A program made the position numbers and the translations under genes. DNA of 64,000 nt, taken from positions 5,268 through 69,267 of IMG/VR virus record IMGVR_UViG_3300045988_126190. The stretch is one strand, 5' to 3'. The DNA is from a virus. How positions within the stretch are numbered: position 1 is the first letter of the stretch; every line of letters begins with the position of its first letter. Of the stretch, positions 3,675-48,533 are shown one piece after another. The notes below the pieces were generated by a model. That model ran no database searches and had not been told where the DNA came from. It worked only from the letters and a program-made list of their open reading frames with translations.

Positions 3675-4430
3675 ATGAATAATCAGATTCAAGTTTTTAA
3701 TAATCCTGAGTTCGGCACCGTCCGTACTATTTGCGAGGACGACAAGGTCCTTTTCTGTGGCAGTGACGTTGCGAAAGCGCTTGGGTATCAGAATCCCAGC
3801 CGCGATGTCAACCGGCACTGTAAGGCAATTATAGAGAGATGTACTACCGATTCGGTAGGTCGTCAGCAATCTATGCTTTTCATCCCCGAAAGCGACGTTT
3901 ACCGTCTTGTGTTCGGGTCGAAGTTGCCTACCGCCGAAAAGTTTACCGACTGGGTGACGGAGGAAGTTCTGCCCTCCATCCGGAAGCACGGGGCGTACAT
4001 GACGCAGGAGAAGCTGCAAGAGGTGCTGTGCAATCCTGATGCGCTGTTCCAGATCGTTTCTGCGCTGAAGGAGGAATCCGACAAGCGGAAGGCCCTCGAA
4101 ATCCAAAACTCTGCGCTTGCCGTGGATTTGGCGATCGCGCAGCCGAAGGCAGACTATTTTGATGACTGCATGGCACGCGGCGGGCTGATGAATTTCCGCG
4201 ACACGGCAAAGCTGCTCGGTATGCGGCAGAAGGAATTTATTGACAACCTCCTGCGGGACAGTTACCTTTATCGGGATAAGCGCGGCCGGCTGCTTCCCTA
4301 TCAAAAGCGGAACAACGGCTACCTTGAGATTAAGGAAGCGTTCAACAATTCGTCCGACTGGAACGGGGTGCAGACGCTTGTTACTCCGAAGGGGCGCGAG
4401 TTCTTTCGCTCTCTCTATCCCAGCGTTTGA
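3675..4430 (+). CDS. antirepressor (Bro-N + KilAC/ANT-like C-terminal domain)
   Basis: IQVFNN...FGTVRT, WVTEEVLPSIRKHGAY. AAGGAGG RBS. Confidence 0.85.
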   Translation: MNNQIQVFNNPEFGTVRTICEDDKVLFCGSDVAKALGYQNPSRDVNRHCKAIIERCTTDSVGRQQSMLFIPESDVYRLVFGSKLPTAEKFTDWVTEEVLPSIRKHGAYMTQEKLQEVLCNPDALFQIVSALKEESDKRKALEIQNSALAVDLAIAQPKADYFDDCMARGGLMNFRDTAKLLGMRQKEFIDNLLRDSYLYRDKRGRLLPYQKRNNGYLEIKEAFNNSSDWNGVQTLVTPKGREFFRSLYPSV

Positions 4431-41990: not shown

Positions 41991-41995
41991 AAAAC

Positions 41996-42012
41996 CGGCG
42001 GGTTTCCCGCCG
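41996..42012 (+). other. GC hairpin without U-tract
   Basis: CGGCGGG-UUU-CCCGCCG, starting 6 nt after the stop codon. Confidence 0.55.
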
Positions 42013-42016
42013 ATAT

Positions 42017-42083
42017 GCCGCGCCCTAGGTGGCTGGGAGGGCTGAATGACCCTCAATGATCGGTTCAATTCCGGTGCGCGGTA
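42017..42083 (+). ncRNA. mini tRNA-like element 1 (67 nt)
   Basis: Acceptor GCCGCGC/GCGCGGU. T arm AUCGG-UUCAAUU-CCGGU. Stem GAGGG/CCCUC with the 8-nt loop CUGAAUGA. 4-bp D stem with GUGG loop. No CCA. Confidence 0.5.
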
Positions 42084-42209
42084 TTTGATTTTCGTTGCAT
42101 TGGCCTCCTTTCTGTTAACGCCCCACGACGGATGGCGCTTTTGCGAGCTGCGAGACGGCCGAGCGTCTGGGATGAAACAATCCGTGCCGGTGAAAATCCG
42201 GCGACATAT

Positions 42210-42262
42210 GGGGCGCAAAGGGAGCGGCGACGTTGCCGGCGGTTCGAGTCCGTATGCCCCTT
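42210..42262 (+). ncRNA. T-loop-containing minihelix followed by U-tract
   Basis: GGGGCG/UGCCCC closing stem. GCGG-UUCGAGU-CCGU arm. Inner CGGC/GCCG hairpin, then UUUU. Confidence 0.3.
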
Positions 42263-42444
42263 TTGATCGTCCCCTGCCGCCGGGGTCTCACAAATAGGCG
42301 GCTTGCAAAAATCTTCTAAGGGGTGTCCATTTCGCGCGCCCCTTGCACACTGAACAACGTTATTCTTGCGATTACTCCTACAAATTCGTCACCCTGCACA
42401 AATCTAGCTCCTGAATTTCGTACATTCTGCTGTTTCAATTATCC

Positions 42445-42472
42445 TTGACTTTTGGCGGACATAAGTTATAAT
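42445..42472 (+). promoter_or_regulatory. promoter of RHH cassette C
   Basis: TTGACT-16-TATAAT with the inverted repeat CATAAGT/ACTTATG flanking the -10 box. Confidence 0.55.
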
Positions 42473-42508
42473 AGACTTATGGCAGACAAAAGTTGGAGGT
42501 GAGGTACA

Positions 42509-42679
42509 TTGTCGCCAAGAACCGGCAGACCAACAGAAAACCCGAAGCAAGAGCGCATTACCGTCCGATTGGACAAGGAATCCGCTGAAATCCTGCACCT
42601 GTACTGCGAGAAAAAGAACGTAGACAGAGCAGAGGCGATTCGCCGAGGGGTTAAGAAGTTGGCAGACGAAATAAAATAG
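42509..42679 (+). CDS. ribbon-helix-helix (Arc-like) regulator (56 aa, not in track)
   Basis: TTG start after GGAGGTGAGG. Own translation: SPRTGRPTENPK...VRLDKE...EAIRRGVKKL. Confidence 0.6.
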   Translation: MSPRTGRPTENPKQERITVRLDKESAEILHLYCEKKNVDRAEAIRRGVKKLADEIK

Positions 42680-42740
42680 AGTGTTGGCTGCCTCTCACAA
42701 CAAACCAACACCCTATCAGACAGGACAGGGAAACCTATCC
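42672..42740 (-). ncRNA. putative sar-like antisense RNA of cassette C
   Basis: Antisense promoter at 42747-42775 plus hairpin GTGTTGG/CCAACAC with a T-run on the minus strand. Confidence 0.4.
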
Positions 42741-42746
42741 GAAATC

Positions 42747-42775
42747 ATTATACATCGGAGCGGCTTCCTTGTCAA
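42747..42775 (-). promoter_or_regulatory. antisense consensus promoter
   Basis: Minus-strand TTGACA-17-TATAAT. Confidence 0.6.
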
Positions 42776-42799
42776 ACATTGTTTTGAAAAGGAGCTATT

Positions 42800-43552
42800 A
42801 TGAATAACGAGATTCAGATTTTCAGCAATGAAGAATTCGGAGAAATCCGCACTTTGGCTATCAACGATGAGCCGTGGCTCGTCGGAAAGGATGTAGCCGA
42901 AATCCTTGGATATGCAAACCCTAACGAAGCAATATCGGACCATGTAGATGACGAGGACAAACTCAATAGCAAAACGCTATCGAGTTTTTCTGCAAATCTT
43001 GGACAGCGCGGTGGCTGGCTCATTAACGAAAGCGGGTTATACTCGCTTATCATGAGTTCCAAGCTTCCGGCGGCAAAGAAGTTCAAACGCTGGGTCACAT
43101 CCGAAGTTCTCCCCTCTATCCGCAAGAACGGCGGGTATATCGCGGGTCAGGAAAGCATGACACCGGCGGAGCTGATGGCTTCGGCGCTGCTGATGGCGCA
43201 GAAAACGCTTGCAGAGCGCGAGGCGAGAATTGCCGACCTGACGGTACAGAATCAAATCATGCAGCCGAAAGCGGAATACTTCGATGAGCTGTGCGACAGA
43301 GAAACCTTGACCGGCATTTACGAGACGGCGAAGGAGCTGGGCGTAGCGCCGAGGAAGTTCACAGCGGATTTGGTCAAGCACAGATACCTGTACCGTGGGA
43401 AAAAGGGACAGCTCCTGCCATGCGAGAGCAAGAACGACGGGCTGTTTGTATTAAAAGAAACCTTCAACAACCAAACCAAATGGAGCGGCACACAGACGCT
43501 CATTACCGTAAAAGGGCGCGAACTGTTCCGCATGATGCGCCTCGGCGCTTGA
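42800..43552 (+). CDS. antirepressor (Bro-N + KilAC/ANT-like)
   Basis: MNNEIQIFSNEEFGEIRT, RWVTSEVLPSIRKNGGY. The leader is near-identical to that of 2959. Confidence 0.85.
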   Translation: MNNEIQIFSNEEFGEIRTLAINDEPWLVGKDVAEILGYANPNEAISDHVDDEDKLNSKTLSSFSANLGQRGGWLINESGLYSLIMSSKLPAAKKFKRWVTSEVLPSIRKNGGYIAGQESMTPAELMASALLMAQKTLAEREARIADLTVQNQIMQPKAEYFDELCDRETLTGIYETAKELGVAPRKFTADLVKHRYLYRGKKGQLLPCESKNDGLFVLKETFNNQTKWSGTQTLITVKGRELFRMMRLGA

Positions 43553-43567
43553 TTGGAGGCGTGCGGT

Positions 43568-43693
43568 ATGTTTGAGGGCTATTCGTTAGAGGAAATCACC
43601 GATATGATTCGGCACACGCTGAAAGACCCGGAACGGCGAGAAAGGCTGCTCGGCCTTTTGGAAGAGCTGGGGCTTTTGCCGAGGAATTCATAA
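43568..43693 (+). CDS. small conserved cassette protein (41 aa)
   Basis: MFEGYSLEEITDMIRHTLKDPERRERLLGLLEELGLLPRNS. Confidence 0.55.
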   Translation: MFEGYSLEEITDMIRHTLKDPERRERLLGLLEELGLLPRNS

Positions 43694-43709
43694 ACTACAT
43701 AGTGCAATG

Positions 43710-43792
43710 CAGCCGCGAATGGGCGGCTGTGAAGAGCAAAGAGGCTCATTGACACAGGAGACTGTGTTAATGGGTCTCTTTTTTGTTGTTTT
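43710..43792 (+). terminator. hairpin + GAGCAAAGAGGCTC + long terminator (copy 1)
   Basis: CAGCCGC/GCGGCTG hairpin, the 14-mer at 43734-43747, AGAGGCTCATT/AATGGGTCTCT stem, then a T-run. Confidence 0.6.
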
Positions 43793-43825
43793 CACAGATT
43801 ATTCAACCAAGGAAGTGATTATCAC

Positions 43826-46474: not shown

Positions 46475-47701
46475 ATGTTGAAGCTCAACAGCCTTGACAC
46501 CAATGTTTTTATCTATCACAGCAACAACGACGAGACCATCGGCACCGGCGCGAACAAAATCAGCCGCGATGAGCTGATTGCCTCCGGCCGTCTGTGCGCT
46601 ACCGAATATCTCGGCAAGCAGCTCGACCCGAAGGGCTTCGTTTCCCGCCTTGCGCAGTTTGGCGGCAGCTACGACGTTGCGGCCCGCAAGCACATGGAGA
46701 AGAAGCTCCTGTTCTGTGCGACCAAGGCCTACGCGGCGGTCGGCAAGCCCGCTCCGGAGAACGTGGAAGCGGTCAAGAGCGACATGAACCTCTGGAAAGA
46801 CCCGATTTTCCTGCGCACGATGTCCTACATTGACGCAGAGGTCGTATCTCCCCTTCTGTACAGCGTCATTTCCGACCTCGGCGGCCAGATGCTGAATCTG
46901 CGCAGCGCTCCGGTTGGCCGCACGGTTGAAATCAACGTGCAGTCCAACGAGGCGTTCCTGTGGGAGGACAGCGCTCCCGGCTCCGGCCACAGCACCACCA
47001 AGAACTACCTGTACGGCGACACCATCACCCTCAACCCGAAGATGTACGTCTGCAACGGCACCATCAAGTGGTTCCAGCTCGTCGCTTCGGACAACGGCAT
47101 GGACGCCGGCTGGTACTACACCGCCATTATCCGTGGCCTGTGGAGCAAGATCACCGCGCTTTACACCAAGGCGCTGCTGAACGCGGCGACTAACACCATG
47201 TACGTTCCCTCCTACCTGACCTTCGACTCCTACACCTCCGCCAACTGGGCGTCCGCGACCACTGCCGCTGCGGTTGCCAACGGCGTTCGCCGCGAGCAGC
47301 TGATGGCGTTCGGCAACTACGCAAGCCTCCAGAAGGTGCTGCCCTCCGGGACCGCCTCTGACGCTGCACTGACCTATCAGCTCGGCGAGGAATGGATGCG
47401 CAACGGCTTCGTGAGCATGGTTGGCCGCGTGCCGCTGTTCGAGATCATGCCTGCCATGGTTCCCGGCACGGTGAACACCACCGGCACGATGATCGACCTC
47501 GACAAGCATCTGTTCATTACCGCACGTGTCGGCGACGCGATGGCTCCCATCTACGGCGCGATTGCCGAGGGCTGGCCGGTCGCGATGGAGTACACCCCGT
47601 CCGAGACCGCAGACTTCGAGATCAGCATCAACATGAGCACGCTCATGGATTTCAAGCCGGTGTTTGCCTCCAAGGTCGCCGTTATCCAGAACGTTATCTA
47701 A
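46475..47701 (+). CDS. major capsid protein
   Basis: 408 aa. Position, and followed by a stabilising hairpin. Confidence 0.6.
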   Translation: MLKLNSLDTNVFIYHSNNDETIGTGANKISRDELIASGRLCATEYLGKQLDPKGFVSRLAQFGGSYDVAARKHMEKKLLFCATKAYAAVGKPAPENVEAVKSDMNLWKDPIFLRTMSYIDAEVVSPLLYSVISDLGGQMLNLRSAPVGRTVEINVQSNEAFLWEDSAPGSGHSTTKNYLYGDTITLNPKMYVCNGTIKWFQLVASDNGMDAGWYYTAIIRGLWSKITALYTKALLNAATNTMYVPSYLTFDSYTSANWASATTAAAVANGVRREQLMAFGNYASLQKVLPSGTASDAALTYQLGEEWMRNGFVSMVGRVPLFEIMPAMVPGTVNTTGTMIDLDKHLFITARVGDAMAPIYGAIAEGWPVAMEYTPSETADFEISINMSTLMDFKPVFASKVAVIQNVI

Positions 47702-47715
47702 TCCAAGCCTTTTTC

Positions 47716-47737
47716 GGAGGGCGGGAAACCGCCCTCC
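47716..47737 (+). other. 9-bp GC hairpin with GAAA tetraloop, no U-tract
   Basis: GGAGGGCGG-GAAA-CCGCCCUCC. Confidence 0.6.
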
Positions 47738-47744
47738 CCTATCC

Positions 47745-47812
47745 GCCGCTCTGGGATGGTCTCCTTTCGGCAAGTACAGAAAGGCACGACGGTTCGACTC
47801 CGTCGAGCGGCA
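47745..47812 (+). ncRNA. mini tRNA-like element 2 (68 nt)
   Basis: Acceptor GCCGCUC/GAGCGGC. Perfect T arm GACGG-UUCGACU-CCGUC. Stem CUUUC/GAAAG with a 10-nt loop. Mini D arm. Confidence 0.5.
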
Positions 47813-47855
47813 CTTAAAAAACGAATTTTCACCATAGTTGAGGAGGTAAAAACCT

Positions 47856-48533
47856 ATGGCAGAGGCAACGAAGCGAACCTACACGAAGAAAACTACGGCT
47901 GCGCCGAAGGAAACCGCCGAAACGGCGGCTCCCGCAGCAGAAAAGACCTACACGAAGGCCGAGCTGGACGCCATGATCGCGGCGGCAGTCCAACAGGCGA
48001 TCGCGAATTATGCTCCCGCGCCGCTCCCCGCGCAGACGGCCGGCGACAGCGTTGTTACCGTGCTGTTTATCGCAGAGGTATCGAAGGAGAACCAGTTGGA
48101 GCTTCCGGGCTACGGCGCGATGCGTCCGAATTCGTATCTGGAAATCCCGAAGAAGGAGTTTGGAGGCAAGTTCATGTCGCCGCTGGCACGGCTCCTGATT
48201 GATAAGCGCCATATTCTGGTGGTGGACGGGCTGACGGAGGACGAAAGAATCCGCTGGAACTGCGACTACAAGGACGGCGAGGTGCTGTCTGAGCGCGTAT
48301 TTGACCACATGCTGGACTTTGACACCGCGCAGCTGTGTGACATCGTTTCCCATCTTTGCGACGAACACAAGCGCTTTGTGTGCCGCAGAATCACGCAGGC
48401 GCGGGTGGACAAGGACAACCGGCTCTCTCTTGACCGCGTAAAGGCGGTAAATGCGCTGACGACCCACATTGTTGAGGGCGGCCTTTTGCAGCCGGTCATT
48501 GAGGATTTTGCGAAGGAACTCGTGAAGAAGTAA
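47856..48533 (+). CDS. hypothetical virion protein
   Basis: 225-aa ORF. Confidence 0.6.
   Translation: MAEATKRTYTKKTTAAPKETAETAAPAAEKTYTKAELDAMIAAAVQQAIANYAPAPLPAQTAGDSVVTVLFIAEVSKENQLELPGYGAMRPNSYLEIPKKEFGGKFMSPLARLLIDKRHILVVDGLTEDERIRWNCDYKDGEVLSERVFDHMLDFDTAQLCDIVSHLCDEHKRFVCRRITQARVDKDNRLSLDRVKAVNALTTHIVEGGLLQPVIEDFAKELVKK

What the first reader, a model, noticed from the sequence alone, without database searches (positions are those of the whole stretch)
47716..47812. Second hairpin + tRNA-like unit directly after the major capsid gene
A 9-bp hairpin with a GAAA tetraloop (47716-47737, no U-tract) is followed 7 nt later by a 68-nt element. That element has acceptor GCCGCUC/GAGCGGC, a perfect T arm (GACGG-UUCGACU-CCGUC), a mini D arm and a 5-bp stem with a 10-nt loop. 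Both units start GCCGC and have the same compact architecture. Both sit after genes whose mRNA would benefit from a protected 3' end. The recurrence argues for a functional composite element rather than a decayed tRNA.
Basis: partly seen in the sequence, partly recalled or inferred. Interest (0 to 1): 0.8.

Follow-up and report, generated by a model that had tools for sequence, protein, structure and literature searches.

The report
tRNA-derived processing signal after capsid gene
Right after the major capsid gene of a gut Clostridia phage sits a strong hairpin followed by a stripped-down tRNA look-alike that cannot decode; related phages carry real tRNAs or even smaller tRNA "minihelices" at the same place, so it most likely acts as a cutting signal for the cell's tRNA-processing enzymes that leaves the capsid message with a protected end.

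Summary
A 9-bp GAAA hairpin with no U-tract (47716-47737) is followed 7 nt later by a 68-nt tRNA-like element (47745-47812). The upstream ORF is an HK97-fold major capsid protein. The element is not a canonical tRNA: it fails Rfam tRNA, and ARAGORN calls it "tRNA-???" with a 2-nt anticodon. It is under selection in its own clade: 3/68 sites vary (two form a compensatory T-stem pair) against 33% of synonymous capsid sites. In about 125 distinct relatives the same slot holds a hairpin followed by true tRNAs, 65-67-nt tRNA-likes, 39-47-nt acceptor+T-arm minihelices, a two-tier hairpin, or nothing. Acceptor+T-arm elements are about 30-fold enriched there and are strand-specific. A conserved A-U-A-U leader matches published Firmicute RNase P preferences. 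Best explanation (inferred, untested): a tRNA-derived "punctuation" signal. RNase P, probably with RNase Z, cuts the late transcript and leaves the capsid mRNA ending in a protective hairpin. The closest analogues are plant-mitochondrial t-elements and MALAT1/mascRNA. The element is functional and composite, but it descends from a tRNA, the hairpin often occurs alone, and unit 1 belongs to a larger conserved noncoding module.

The parts
46475..47701 (+). Major capsid protein gene (408 aa, HK97 fold). Its mRNA 3' end is what the element is proposed to define.
   Evidence: AlphaFold model from alignment A1 has pLDDT 78.5. All top Foldseek PDB hits are phage capsid proteins, E ~1e-8, probability 1.00. 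245 homologues were found, and P0092 is named 'Major capsid protein'. No Pfam, PHROG or PDB sequence hit.
47716..47737 (+). GC-rich 9-bp hairpin with a GAAA loop and no U-tract. Proposed barrier to 3' exonucleases on the processed capsid mRNA.
   Evidence: Sequence. Not called as a + strand terminator. Within the clade the stem varies at 0/18 sites and the loop at 4/4, and L097 has the loop inverted to TTTC. An equivalent hairpin ends 0-7 nt (median 5) before +1 in 23 of 25 distinct slot elements, the exceptions being L058 (14 nt) and L095.
47738..47744 (+). Single-stranded leader CCTATCC between the hairpin and the element. Close variants have GATAT or GATAC.
   Evidence: Leader consensus over 25 distinct elements: -4 is A (15), -3 is T (18), -2 is A (19), -1 is T (19). 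The window's own -1 and -2 are C and C, a departure from that consensus.
47745..47751 (+). Acceptor stem, 5' strand GCCGCTC. The predicted RNase P cleavage site lies between 47744 and 47745.
   Evidence: 7/7 Watson-Crick pairs with 47805-47811. Varies at 0/7 sites in the clade. Identical in L095 at 89% capsid identity.
47752..47787 (+). 36-nt interior. It holds a 3-bp mini D stem and a central arm CCTTTC (47763-68) / GAAAGG (47779-84) with the 10-nt loop GGCAAGTACA (47769-78). There is no canonical anticodon loop.
   Evidence: ARAGORN and RNAfold. Varies at 1/36 sites within the 95-100% clade. Only ~47% identical to the equally long interior of L095, which has no central stem.
47788..47804 (+). 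T arm GACGG-TTCGACT-CCGTC, containing the GGTTCRANYCC motif at 47791-47801.
   Evidence: Sequence. A:U at 47789:47803 is replaced by G:C in L099, L100, L101 and L095, a double compensatory change. It is the best hit in the window for model R1, which was built without it (16.9 bits).
47805..47812 (+). Acceptor stem 3' strand GAGCGGC plus discriminator A. No CCA is encoded (CTT follows). The predicted RNase Z site is after 47812.
   Evidence: Sequence. Varies at 0/8 sites in the clade. The true tRNAs in the slot (L096, L065, L030) encode CCA, whereas none of the tRNA-like or minihelix copies does.
47813..47858 (+). Variable A-rich spacer, then SD GAGGAGG (47840-46) and the ATG (47856) of the next late gene (225 aa, unknown function).
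   Evidence: The spacer varies at 10/30 sites, while the SD-to-ATG stretch varies at 0/18. ORF list.
41994..42083 (+). Unit 1: hairpin 41994-42014, ATAT leader, then a 67-nt tRNA-like element (GCCGCGC ... ATCGG-TTCAATT-CCGGT GCGCGGT A) with the 8-nt loop CTGAATGA. It lies after the portal gene and a small ORF.
   Evidence: The homologue in L095 carries compensatory acceptor changes. L197 has five true tRNAs in this slot. It is part of a larger conserved module. The hairpin scores as an intrinsic terminator on the minus strand only.

Best explanation
The 68-nt element is a tRNA-derived, non-decoding tRNA mimic that is transcribed as part of the phage late (structural) operon. It serves as a 'punctuation' signal for the host's tRNA-processing enzymes. 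Step 1 (inferred): RNA polymerase reads through the U-tract-less hairpin and the element. Step 2 (inferred from anatomy): RNase P recognises the coaxial acceptor/T-arm stack and cuts at 47744|47745. This leaves the capsid mRNA ending in a 9-bp GC hairpin plus a ~7-nt tail, which 3' exonucleases trim back to the hairpin and no further, so the most-needed late message is stabilised relative to distal genes. Step 3 (inferred): because no CCA is encoded, RNase Z probably cuts after the discriminator at 47812. This releases a ~68-nt RNA and gives the downstream mRNA a new 5'-monophosphate end. What is shown here: the element is structurally tRNA-like but not a tRNA; it is under purifying selection; the acceptor and T arm are the invariant core across lineages; and the slot is shared with true tRNAs and with minimal acceptor+T-arm helices.
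For: (1) Same slot, same upstream hairpin, different fillings. True tRNAs occur in L096 (Thr, 62.9 bits) and L065 (Trp 49.7 bits, Asn 72.2 bits). 65-67-nt tRNA-likes and 39-47-nt minihelices occur in 38 of 125 distinct slots. Excising a true tRNA necessarily cuts the mRNA at this point. (2) What survives in every reduced form is the acceptor+T-arm stack, which is the published minimal RNase P substrate type (PMC4919922). D and anticodon arms are lost. (3) Position and strand specificity. The strict scan gives 13 hits in 32.5 kb of slot, 9 in 732 kb elsewhere and 4 on the minus strand. Model R1 gives 12 of 12 hits at E<=1 in 1.47 Mb inside the slot on the + strand, including 4 that were not in the seed. 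With anchors defined by T-loop sequence only, 34 of 38 in the slot have 6/6 acceptor pairing, whereas coding-sequence anchors never do. (4) Selection in the window's clade. The element varies at 3/68 sites against 66/199 third-codon sites (p=3e-7) and 19/51 flanking noncoding sites (p=6e-6). The hairpin stem varies at 0/18 and its loop at 4/4. The compensatory A:U to G:C change keeps the T stem, while U13A breaks the competing MFE helix. (5) G:U pairs (14 of 231 cells) and strand asymmetry point to RNA-level selection on the + strand. [quoted passage not shown] The ~5-nt single-stranded leader matches the 2-5 nt range over which holoenzyme affinity rises (PMC4919922). (7) No promoter-like site and no + strand terminator lies between the capsid stop and the next gene. 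(8) Experimentally supported precedents exist: plant-mitochondrial t-elements define mRNA 3' and 5' ends through RNase P and RNase Z (PMC1920247), and MALAT1/mascRNA does the same for a lncRNA (PMC4919922).
Against: There is no transcript or cleavage data, so every mechanistic step is inferred. The window's own leader has C at -1 and -2, departing from the consensus. The nearest-neighbour model disfavours the T arm in the window's sequence (about 6.5% probability; 2 kcal/mol above the MFE). Without an encoded CCA, one RNase P contact (RCCA with L15) is missing. 46 of 125 slots have the hairpin alone, so whatever the hairpin does can be done without a tRNA-like signal. The largest clade has a two-tier hairpin without a T-loop. 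The interior is also conserved in the window's clade (1/36), which a pure cutting-signal model does not require. A few such units lie outside the slot (L236, L181).
Confidence: 0.5

Rival explanations
1. The released small RNA is itself the product that matters. After processing and CCA addition, the 68-nt tRNA mimic (and the minihelices in relatives) would act in trans. It might serve as a decoy or competitor for host tRNA-binding enzymes or tRNA-targeting anti-phage nucleases, as a chargeable acceptor minihelix, or as a regulatory RNA that uses its exposed 10-nt loop.
For: The interior, including the 10-nt loop, is as conserved as the stems within the 95-100% clade (1/36 variable sites). True tRNAs, which act in trans, occupy the same slot. 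Phage regulatory RNAs matured by RNase P are known (PMC4919922). Plant t-element RNAs accumulate and receive non-encoded C/CA (PMC1920247).
Against: The interior is unrelated in L095 (about 47% identity, with no central stem) and is reduced to an 8-15-nt linker in the minihelix class. There is no G3:U70 or other obvious minihelix identity set. No antisense target in the window scores better than targets of shuffled loops. The tight positional coupling to the capsid hairpin is not needed for a trans-acting RNA.
Confidence: 0.2
2. It is a transcription-level element. The U-tract-less hairpin acts as a pause or factor-dependent (leaky) terminator after the capsid gene, and the tRNA-like fold modulates read-through or simply sits in the read-through region.
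For: Five relatives have a genuine hairpin plus U-tract terminator in this slot, and several minihelix lineages have a hairpin followed by TTTAT or TTTTAT. Differential expression by a terminator after the capsid gene is a familiar phage design (own knowledge, e.g. T7 T-phi).
Against: The window's hairpin is followed by CCTATCC, and no + strand terminator is called. This model does not explain why the acceptor+T-arm geometry, the T-loop motif and the A-U-A-U leader are conserved.
Confidence: 0.1
3. It is a non-functional relic: a tRNA pseudogene left in a slot where tRNA genes come and go.
For: The slot content turns over rapidly between lineages. The element has lost its CCA, D arm and anticodon loop. 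Many relatives lack any element. ARAGORN flags it as an odd tRNA.
Against: Variable sites are 3/68 against 33% at synonymous and neighbouring noncoding sites (p about 1e-6 to 1e-7). There are compensatory changes in the T stem and, in the unit-1 and minihelix lineages, in the acceptor. The non-random pattern of loss always spares the acceptor/T stack. The short class is confined to one slot and one strand.
Confidence: 0.1
4. It has a DNA-level role. The tRNA-like sequence would act as a recombination or integration target (an attB mimic) that promotes exchange of cassettes or morons at module junctions.
For: Slot contents are mosaic. Unit 1 lies about 220 nt from a moron (Arc-like repressor and Ant) that is absent from L095 and L096. 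tRNA T-arm/acceptor regions are classic integrase targets (own knowledge).
Against: G:U wobble pairs and strand-specific occurrence indicate selection on the + strand RNA fold. No integrase or direct repeats were seen at unit 2. The capsid-proximal hairpin spacing and the leader motif are unexplained by this model.
Confidence: 0.05

Closest known systems
Plant-mitochondrial t-elements (tRNA-like processing signals; Forner et al. 2007, PMC1920247)
   Same: Both are non-canonical cloverleaves that keep the GGTTCRANYCC T-arm motif and an acceptor stem. Both are embedded in mRNA precursors next to coding regions, alongside true tRNAs and even simpler 'acceptor-stem-like stem-loops' that play the same role. 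In plants, RNase P and RNase Z generate mRNA 3' and 5' ends at their borders, and stem-loops just upstream of the 3' ends are thought to block exonucleases.
   Different: This element is in a DNA phage of Firmicutes, not in an organelle, and the host RNase P is the bacterial RNA-based enzyme. Processing is experimentally mapped for t-elements and not at all here. Here the element is tightly coupled (0-7 nt, median 5) to one strong hairpin in one syntenic slot, and a graded reduction series (tRNA, then 67 nt, then ~41 nt) is visible among relatives.
MALAT1 / MEN-beta 3'-end module (stabilising structure + tRNA-like mascRNA/menRNA cut by RNase P and RNase Z)
   Same: The architecture is the same: a 3'-stabilising RNA structure immediately upstream of a tRNA-like element. 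RNase P cleavage of that element creates the mature 3' end, and RNase Z releases a small tRNA-like RNA (PMC4919922).
   Different: The MALAT1 module is a eukaryotic nuclear lncRNA. Its stabiliser is a triple helix rather than a plain GC hairpin. There is no homology between the two.
Canonical phage-encoded tRNA genes
   Same: It has a 7-bp acceptor, a 5-bp T stem and a TTCGACT T-loop. It sits where relatives have real tRNAs (L096 Thr; L065 Trp and Asn), behind the same hairpin and leader.
   Different: It fails Rfam RF00005 (no hit at E<=10; the best clan member is tRNA-Sec at 15.5 bits against a gathering score of 47). It has no 7-nt anticodon loop, no full D arm and no encoded CCA.
RNase P-matured phage regulatory RNAs (P1/P7 C4, P4 CI; cited collectively in PMC4919922 as 'phage-induced regulatory RNAs')
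   Same: Both are small phage RNAs excised from longer transcripts by a tRNA-processing enzyme because part of them mimics a tRNA acceptor/T domain.
   Different: Those RNAs act as antisense immunity regulators with defined targets. No target complementarity above background was found here, and the location here is the structural operon.
Animal mitochondrial 'tRNA punctuation' of polycistronic transcripts
   Same: In both, tRNA-shaped units between ORFs are the signals that cut a polycistronic RNA into mRNAs (PMC3790967 abstract).
   Different: The mitochondrial punctuating units are functional tRNAs. Here the unit has lost its decoding parts, and only one or two junctions in the operon carry it.

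Membership tests
Canonical tRNA (Rfam RF00005 / clan CL00001) | Scores at or above the family gathering threshold (29 bits) | tested here: not met
   No gathering hit anywhere in the window. With E<=10 on 47600-47950 there is only tRNA-Sec at 15.5 bits (gathering 47), E 2.1. The positive controls pass: L096 at 62.9 bits, L065 at 72.2 and 49.7 bits.
Canonical tRNA (Rfam RF00005 / clan CL00001) | 5-bp anticodon stem with a 7-nt loop (U33, 3-nt anticodon, purine 37) | tested here: not met
   ARAGORN can only fit a 6-nt loop with the 2-nt 'anticodon' ag and a mismatched stem. RNAfold gives a 6-bp stem with the 10-nt loop GGCAAGUACA at >0.98 probability.
Canonical tRNA (Rfam RF00005 / clan CL00001) | 7-bp acceptor stem and 5-bp T stem with a 7-nt T-loop (T54, C56, R57, A58), with the 3' acceptor strand abutting the T stem | tested here: met
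   GCCGCTC/GAGCGGC and GACGG-TTCGACT-CCGTC. However, the T stem is not in the MFE fold.
Canonical tRNA (Rfam RF00005 / clan CL00001) | D arm (3-4 bp, loop with G18 G19) | tested here: inconclusive
   ARAGORN draws a 3-bp GGA/TCC stem with the loop TGGTC, which contains GG. RNAfold does not predict it. It is not conserved in L095.
Canonical tRNA (Rfam RF00005 / clan CL00001) | 3' CCA (encoded or added) and aminoacylation | not testable with these tools
   CCA is not encoded: A-CTT follows the acceptor. The true tRNAs in the slot do encode CCA.
t-element-type tRNA-like mRNA processing signal (works-like comparison) | Non-canonical cloverleaf retaining the GGTTCRANYCC motif and an acceptor stem | tested here: met
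   GGTTCGACTCC at 47791-47801. Structure as described above. The definition comes from PMC1920247.
t-element-type tRNA-like mRNA processing signal (works-like comparison) | Lies within an mRNA precursor, directly flanking a coding region, and is co-transcribed with it | tested here: inconclusive
   It is intergenic, on the same strand as the operon, 44 nt after the capsid stop and 44 nt before the next start. No promoter-like site or + strand terminator lies between them. There are no transcript data.
t-element-type tRNA-like mRNA processing signal (works-like comparison) | mRNA 3' and 5' ends coincide with the element's borders, through RNase P and RNase Z cleavage | not testable with these tools
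   There is only indirect support: the leader consensus A-U-A-U|+1 fits the published U(-1) and A(-2) preferences.
Intrinsic (Rho-independent) terminator, for the hairpin | GC-rich stem-loop followed immediately by a U-tract on the transcribed strand | tested here: not met
   The tail is CCTATCC, and the scan makes no call on the + strand. Only 5 of 125 relatives have a U-tract there.
tmRNA tRNA-like domain | ARAGORN tmRNA call, G3:U70 alanine identity pair, and a long insertion carrying a tag ORF | tested here: not met
   No tmRNA is called. Pair 3:70 is C:G in the window and is never G:U in 21 minihelices.
Antisense regulator of the P1 C4 type | Exposed loop(s) complementary to a target mRNA region in the same phage | tested here: not met
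   The best duplex of the loop with the window's + strand is -18.3 kcal/mol, within the range of 10 shuffled loops (-15.6 to -19.3). Host targets were not tested.

The most novel reading that the evidence does not exclude
Gut Clostridia phages have evolved a dedicated family of non-decoding tRNA mimics. These would be bacterial-virus 't-elements', seen here in a reduction series from full tRNA to a ~40-nt acceptor/T-arm minihelix. Their excision by RNase P and RNase Z would set capsid mRNA ends. The released, CCA-tailed minihelix RNAs would additionally act in trans on the host tRNA machinery or on tRNA-targeting defences.
Probability: 0.15. Interest if true: 0.8.

Novelty: new variant of a known kind. 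Interest (0 to 1): 0.6.

Why it matters
If the mechanism holds, this would show that tRNA 'punctuation' is also used by DNA phages of Firmicutes to tune late-gene stoichiometry. Until now that use of tRNA-shaped RNA purely as a cutting signal, with an adjacent structure protecting the new 3' end, is documented for mitochondria and for MALAT1-type lncRNAs. The relatives provide a natural deletion series (tRNA, then a 67-nt mimic, then a ~41-nt minihelix, then a two-tier hairpin). That series marks out what the host enzymes minimally need in vivo. It also explains a class of 'tRNA-???' or pseudo-tRNA calls in gut phage genomes, and it gives annotators a recognisable motif: GC hairpin, A-U-A-U leader, then an acceptor/T-arm helix after the capsid gene. 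The prediction can be tested directly with existing gut metatranscriptomes or with a Flavonifractor/Oscillospiraceae lysogen.

Tried and rejected
1. Rfam at gathering score on the window, and on 19 related loci, gave no family other than true tRNAs in L065 and L096. Rfam in E-value mode around both units gave only chance-level hits: tRNA-Sec, ncS025, PyrR207 and FMN.
2. GenBank phages (blastn, distant mode) gave only a 38-nt chance match to a mycobacteriophage.
3. Pfam, PHROGs and the PDB sequence search for the capsid ORF found nothing. A fold search was needed.
4. MAFFT on the raw minihelices misaligned the 5' strands (A2). I replaced it with a linker-trimmed alignment (A3).
5. Model R1 (short class) does not align globally to the window's 67-nt elements. 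It gives only local T-arm hits with weak E-values of 0.16 and 2.8, so the window's element is not a member of the short class.
6. The whole-window acceptor+T-arm scan is not enriched over shuffles. The signal is specific to the slot.
7. Covariation counts on A3 are reported only as description, because the sequences were selected by a pairing-based scan. The non-circular tests are.
8. The search for an antisense target of the 10-nt loop (unit 2) and the 8-nt loop (unit 1) found nothing above shuffled controls.
9. The tmRNA and alanine-minihelix (G3:U70) readings were rejected.
10. The csRNA catalogue paper (PMC10690425) has no supplementary text held, so I could not check whether this contig already carries a predicted csRNA.
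11. My first leader table mis-registered L177 and L178 by one base. It was corrected.
Full report
WHAT IS THERE. The window is a temperate siphophage or prophage of gut Clostridia. It is identical to IMG/VR UViG_3300045988_154853 and to a contig of an uncultured Clostridiales MAG. Relatives lie in Flavonifractor, Flintibacter and Oscillospiraceae genomes, and neighbouring genes carry SPbeta-type structural domains. ORF 46475-47701 has no Pfam, PHROG or PDB sequence match. However, its AlphaFold model (pLDDT 78.5) matches only HK97-fold phage capsid proteins (Foldseek E ~1e-8), and a homologue is named major capsid protein.

Fourteen nucleotides after its stop codon lies GGAGGGCGG-GAAA-CCGCCCTCC (47716-47737) with no U-tract. 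Seven nucleotides further on there is a 68-nt element (47745-47812). It has a perfect 7-bp acceptor, a perfect 5-bp T stem with the loop TTCGACT, a 6-bp central arm with a 10-nt loop, and at most a 3-bp D stem.

NOT A tRNA. ARAGORN reports it only as 'tRNA-???' with a 2-nt anticodon. Rfam finds nothing at gathering score. In permissive mode it finds only tRNA-Sec at 15.5 bits against a threshold of 47. No CCA is encoded. The thermodynamic model also prefers a competing helix over the T stem (-29.1 against -27.1 kcal/mol; T-stem probability about 6.5%). I count that as evidence against the tRNA-like fold at the single-sequence level.

THE SLOT IN RELATIVES. Using 245 capsid homologues I fetched about 260 loci. 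These gave 125 distinct sequences of the region after the capsid stop. Their contents break down as follows:
- Hairpin plus true tRNAs. L096, at 72% capsid identity, has tRNA-Thr with an encoded CCA (Rfam 62.9 bits). L065 and L079 have tRNA-Trp plus tRNA-Asn (49.7 and 72.2 bits).
- Hairpin plus 65-67-nt tRNA-likes: the window's clade, L095 and L107.
- Hairpin plus 39-47-nt 'minihelices'. These have a 6-7-bp acceptor, an 8-15-nt linker, a 5-bp T stem and the loop T[TG]C[AG]ANY. Examples are L177 and L178 at 68% identity, and about 20 more lineages at 34-45%.
- Hairpin plus a two-tier hairpin without a T-loop: 26 sequences of the largest clade.
- Hairpin alone (46 sequences), hairpin plus U-tract (5) or nothing (8).

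IS THAT MORE THAN CHANCE? The tests below do not depend on my having selected for pairing.
- A strict acceptor+T-arm scan gives 13 hits in 32.5 kb of slot, 9 in 732 kb elsewhere on the same strand, and 4 in 764 kb on the opposite strand (p = 5e-13). Shuffled slots give 0-2 of 125 against 32 of 125 observed.
- A covariance model of the short class (R1) was searched over 1.47 Mb of +/-10 kb flanks. It returns 12 hits at E<=1, all on the + strand within about 40-160 nt of the capsid stop. Four of them were not in the seed.
- Anchoring on the T-loop sequence alone, 34 of 38 anchors in the slot have 6/6 acceptor pairing and at least 2/3 of the remaining T-stem pairs. Outside the slot such scores occur at true tRNA clusters and unit-1-type elements, plus two minus-strand anchors at (2,6), and never at anchors in coding sequence.
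- The whole window is not enriched, so the effect belongs to the slot, not to base composition.
- Two further 'hairpin + (C/A)TA(T/C) + tRNA-like' units lie elsewhere, in L236 and L181. The unit is therefore not strictly confined to the capsid slot.

SELECTION IN THE WINDOW'S OWN LINEAGE. I compared eight sequences at 95-100% capsid identity.
- Third codon positions of the capsid gene vary at 66 of 199 sites.
- The noncoding pieces around the unit vary at 19 of 51 sites.
- The hairpin stem varies at 0 of 18 sites, while its loop varies at 4 of 4. In L097 the loop is inverted to TTTC.
- The 68-nt element varies at 3 of 68 sites (p = 3e-7 and 6e-6).
- Two of those three changes are the two halves of one T-stem pair (A:U to G:C). 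The third (U13A) weakens the competing MFE helix. This resolves the thermodynamic ambiguity in favour of the T arm.
- At 89% capsid identity (L095) the acceptor and T arm are unchanged. The equally long interior is only about 47% identical and has lost the central stem.
- G:U pairs in the stems and the strand asymmetry show that the fold is selected in the + strand RNA.

LEADER AND SPACING. In 23 of 25 distinct elements a strong hairpin (-14 to -27 kcal/mol) ends 0-7 nt before +1, with a median of 5 nt. The leader reads A(-4, 15/25) U(-3, 18/25) A(-2, 19/25) U(-1, 19/25). The RNase P review PMC4919922 states several relevant points. [quoted passage not shown] The protein subunit binds N(-4) to N(-7), and affinity rises with leader length from 2 to 5 nt. 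[quoted passage not shown] The window's own copy has C at -1 and -2, whereas its 97%-identical relatives have GATAT or GATAC. That is a blemish on the fit.

MECHANISM. Where a true tRNA sits in this slot, and no promoter or terminator intervenes (none is predicted in the window), maturing the tRNA must cut the late mRNA a few nucleotides after the hairpin. The reduced forms keep exactly the part that the tRNA end-processing enzymes recognise and lose the parts needed for decoding. I therefore propose a sequence of events. RNase P cleaves at 47744|47745. The capsid mRNA is left with a hairpin-capped 3' end. RNase Z probably cleaves after 47812, because CCA is absent. All of these steps are inferred. 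The short 3' tail left on the hairpin would be a poor toehold for 3' exonucleases; that point rests on my own knowledge of PNPase and RNase R requirements and was not tested.

CLOSEST KNOWN. The closest described systems are the following.
- Plant-mitochondrial t-elements. These are tRNA-like structures with the GGTTCRANYCC motif whose borders coincide with mRNA 3' and 5' ends made by RNase P and RNase Z. They occur alongside true tRNAs and 'acceptor-stem-like stem-loops' that do the same job (PMC1920247).
- The MALAT1/mascRNA module (PMC4919922).

MEMBERSHIP. The element is not a canonical tRNA, because defining features were tested and not met. It works like a t-element, but the defining experimental feature (mapped ends) cannot be tested here. 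The hairpin is not an intrinsic terminator. The tmRNA-like and C4-like antisense readings were tested and not met.

RIVALS. A trans-acting role for the released RNA remains open, because the interior is conserved within the window's clade. It is weakened by the unrelated interior of L095 and by the interior-less minihelices. A neutral pseudogene is contradicted by the substitution pattern. A transcriptional pause or terminator role fits the hairpin but not the tRNA-like geometry. A DNA-level recombination target is contradicted by the RNA-type (G:U, strand-specific) conservation.

THE OTHER UNIT. Unit 1 (hairpin 41994-42014, element 42017-42083) has the same size and plan, an ATAT leader, and an 8-nt loop. 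Its slot, between the portal gene plus small ORF and the 179-aa ORF, holds five true tRNAs in L197. However, unit 1 is the 5' end of a ~300-nt noncoding module with long invariant blocks that is shared with L095, L260 and L261. In L260 and L261 the module sits directly behind a TTG(C/A)AA-17-TAATAA promoter-like site. Its hairpin scores as a terminator only for the minus strand, facing a perfect minus-strand promoter in an adjacent Arc-like/Ant moron. The 'recurrence' argument is therefore true for the architecture, but the two units are probably not doing the identical job.

VERDICT. The element is a selectively maintained, tRNA-derived, non-decoding structure in a syntenic slot. The processing-signal mechanism is the best-supported reading, with confidence about 0.5, and it is readily testable. 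It is a new variant of a known kind. The literature searches I could run found no description of it in phages.

Noticed in passing
window 42016-42325 (also L095 5425-5815, L260 60-400, L261 9335-9625 minus strand): A ~300-nt noncoding module conserved across four phages in different gene contexts. In order, it contains: a tRNA-like element with an aberrant 8-9-nt loop; an anti-SD-like CCTCCTTTC; the invariant blocks ACGCCCCACG..GATGGCG and AACAATCCG.GCCGGTGAAA.TCCGGC; an optional third acceptor/T-arm piece (window ~42212-42270, deleted in L261); and GTCCCCTGCCG..GGGGTCT.ACAAATAGGCGGCTTGCAAAA. There is no Rfam match. In L260 and L261 it directly follows a promoter-like TTG(C/A)AA-17-TAATAA. It could be a cis-regulatory leader or a larger ncRNA.
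   Followed up: partly
window 42300-43800: A low-GC moron lies inside the structural operon and is absent from L095 and L096. It contains an Arc-like RHH repressor (42509-42679), an anti-repressor Ant (42800-43552, phrog_130 E 5e-75), a + strand promoter (42445-42472), a perfect minus-strand TTGACA-17-TATAAT (42775-42747) followed by a minus-strand terminator-like hairpin (42730-42711), and a strong + strand terminator (43738-43781). The layout is reminiscent of the P22 immI region (arc/ant/sar).
   Followed up: partly
window 41994-42014: The hairpin in front of unit 1 has its T-run on the other side, so it scores as an intrinsic terminator on the minus strand only. It could stop antisense transcription coming from the moron's minus-strand promoter.
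   Followed up: no
L095 9312-9345 and 5412-5440: In the 89%-identity relative, both tRNA-like units are preceded by a shared sequence module (..GACAT(G/T)ATTC..ATTATTCGCTATTCACT..). After the capsid gene this module is part of a ~90-nt insertion between the hairpin and the element. This suggests duplication or mobility of the upstream module.
   Followed up: no
L027-L080 / L205-L258 type loci, ~40-75 nt after the capsid stop: The largest clade (34-36% capsid identity) has, behind the same hairpin and AGATAT leader, a ~30-nt two-tier hairpin: GGYGC-GAA-GYCY-GCATGAGG-GCRG-AGA-GCRCC. Both stems show compensatory variation and there is no T-loop. It is possibly the most reduced form of the slot element.
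   Followed up: partly
L097 ~3743-3764 (equivalent to window 47716-47737): The hairpin loop is the exact reverse complement (TTTC instead of GAAA) in an otherwise identical palindromic stem. This indicates an inversion of the hairpin and shows that the loop sequence is not constrained.
   Followed up: no
L236 ~45-110; L181 ~1560-1780: Further 'GC hairpin + CTAT/ATAC + tRNA-like' units lie outside the capsid slot. L236 has a minihelix (CACCCG/CGGGTG with TTTTGG-TGCAACT-CCAAAA) next to a tRNA cluster. L181 has a tRNA-like element with a 7-bp arm and a 17-nt loop, followed by a unit-1-like block and a second acceptor/T-arm piece.
   Followed up: partly
L252 ~9.9 kb upstream of the capsid stop; L236 ~10.7 kb upstream: ARAGORN calls a tRNA with the anticodon CTA (reported as tRNA-Pyl, i.e. 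amber-reading) in L252, and a 'tRNA-???' with the 4-nt anticodon ggta in L236. These could be suppressor or frameshift-type tRNAs in related gut phages.
   Followed up: no
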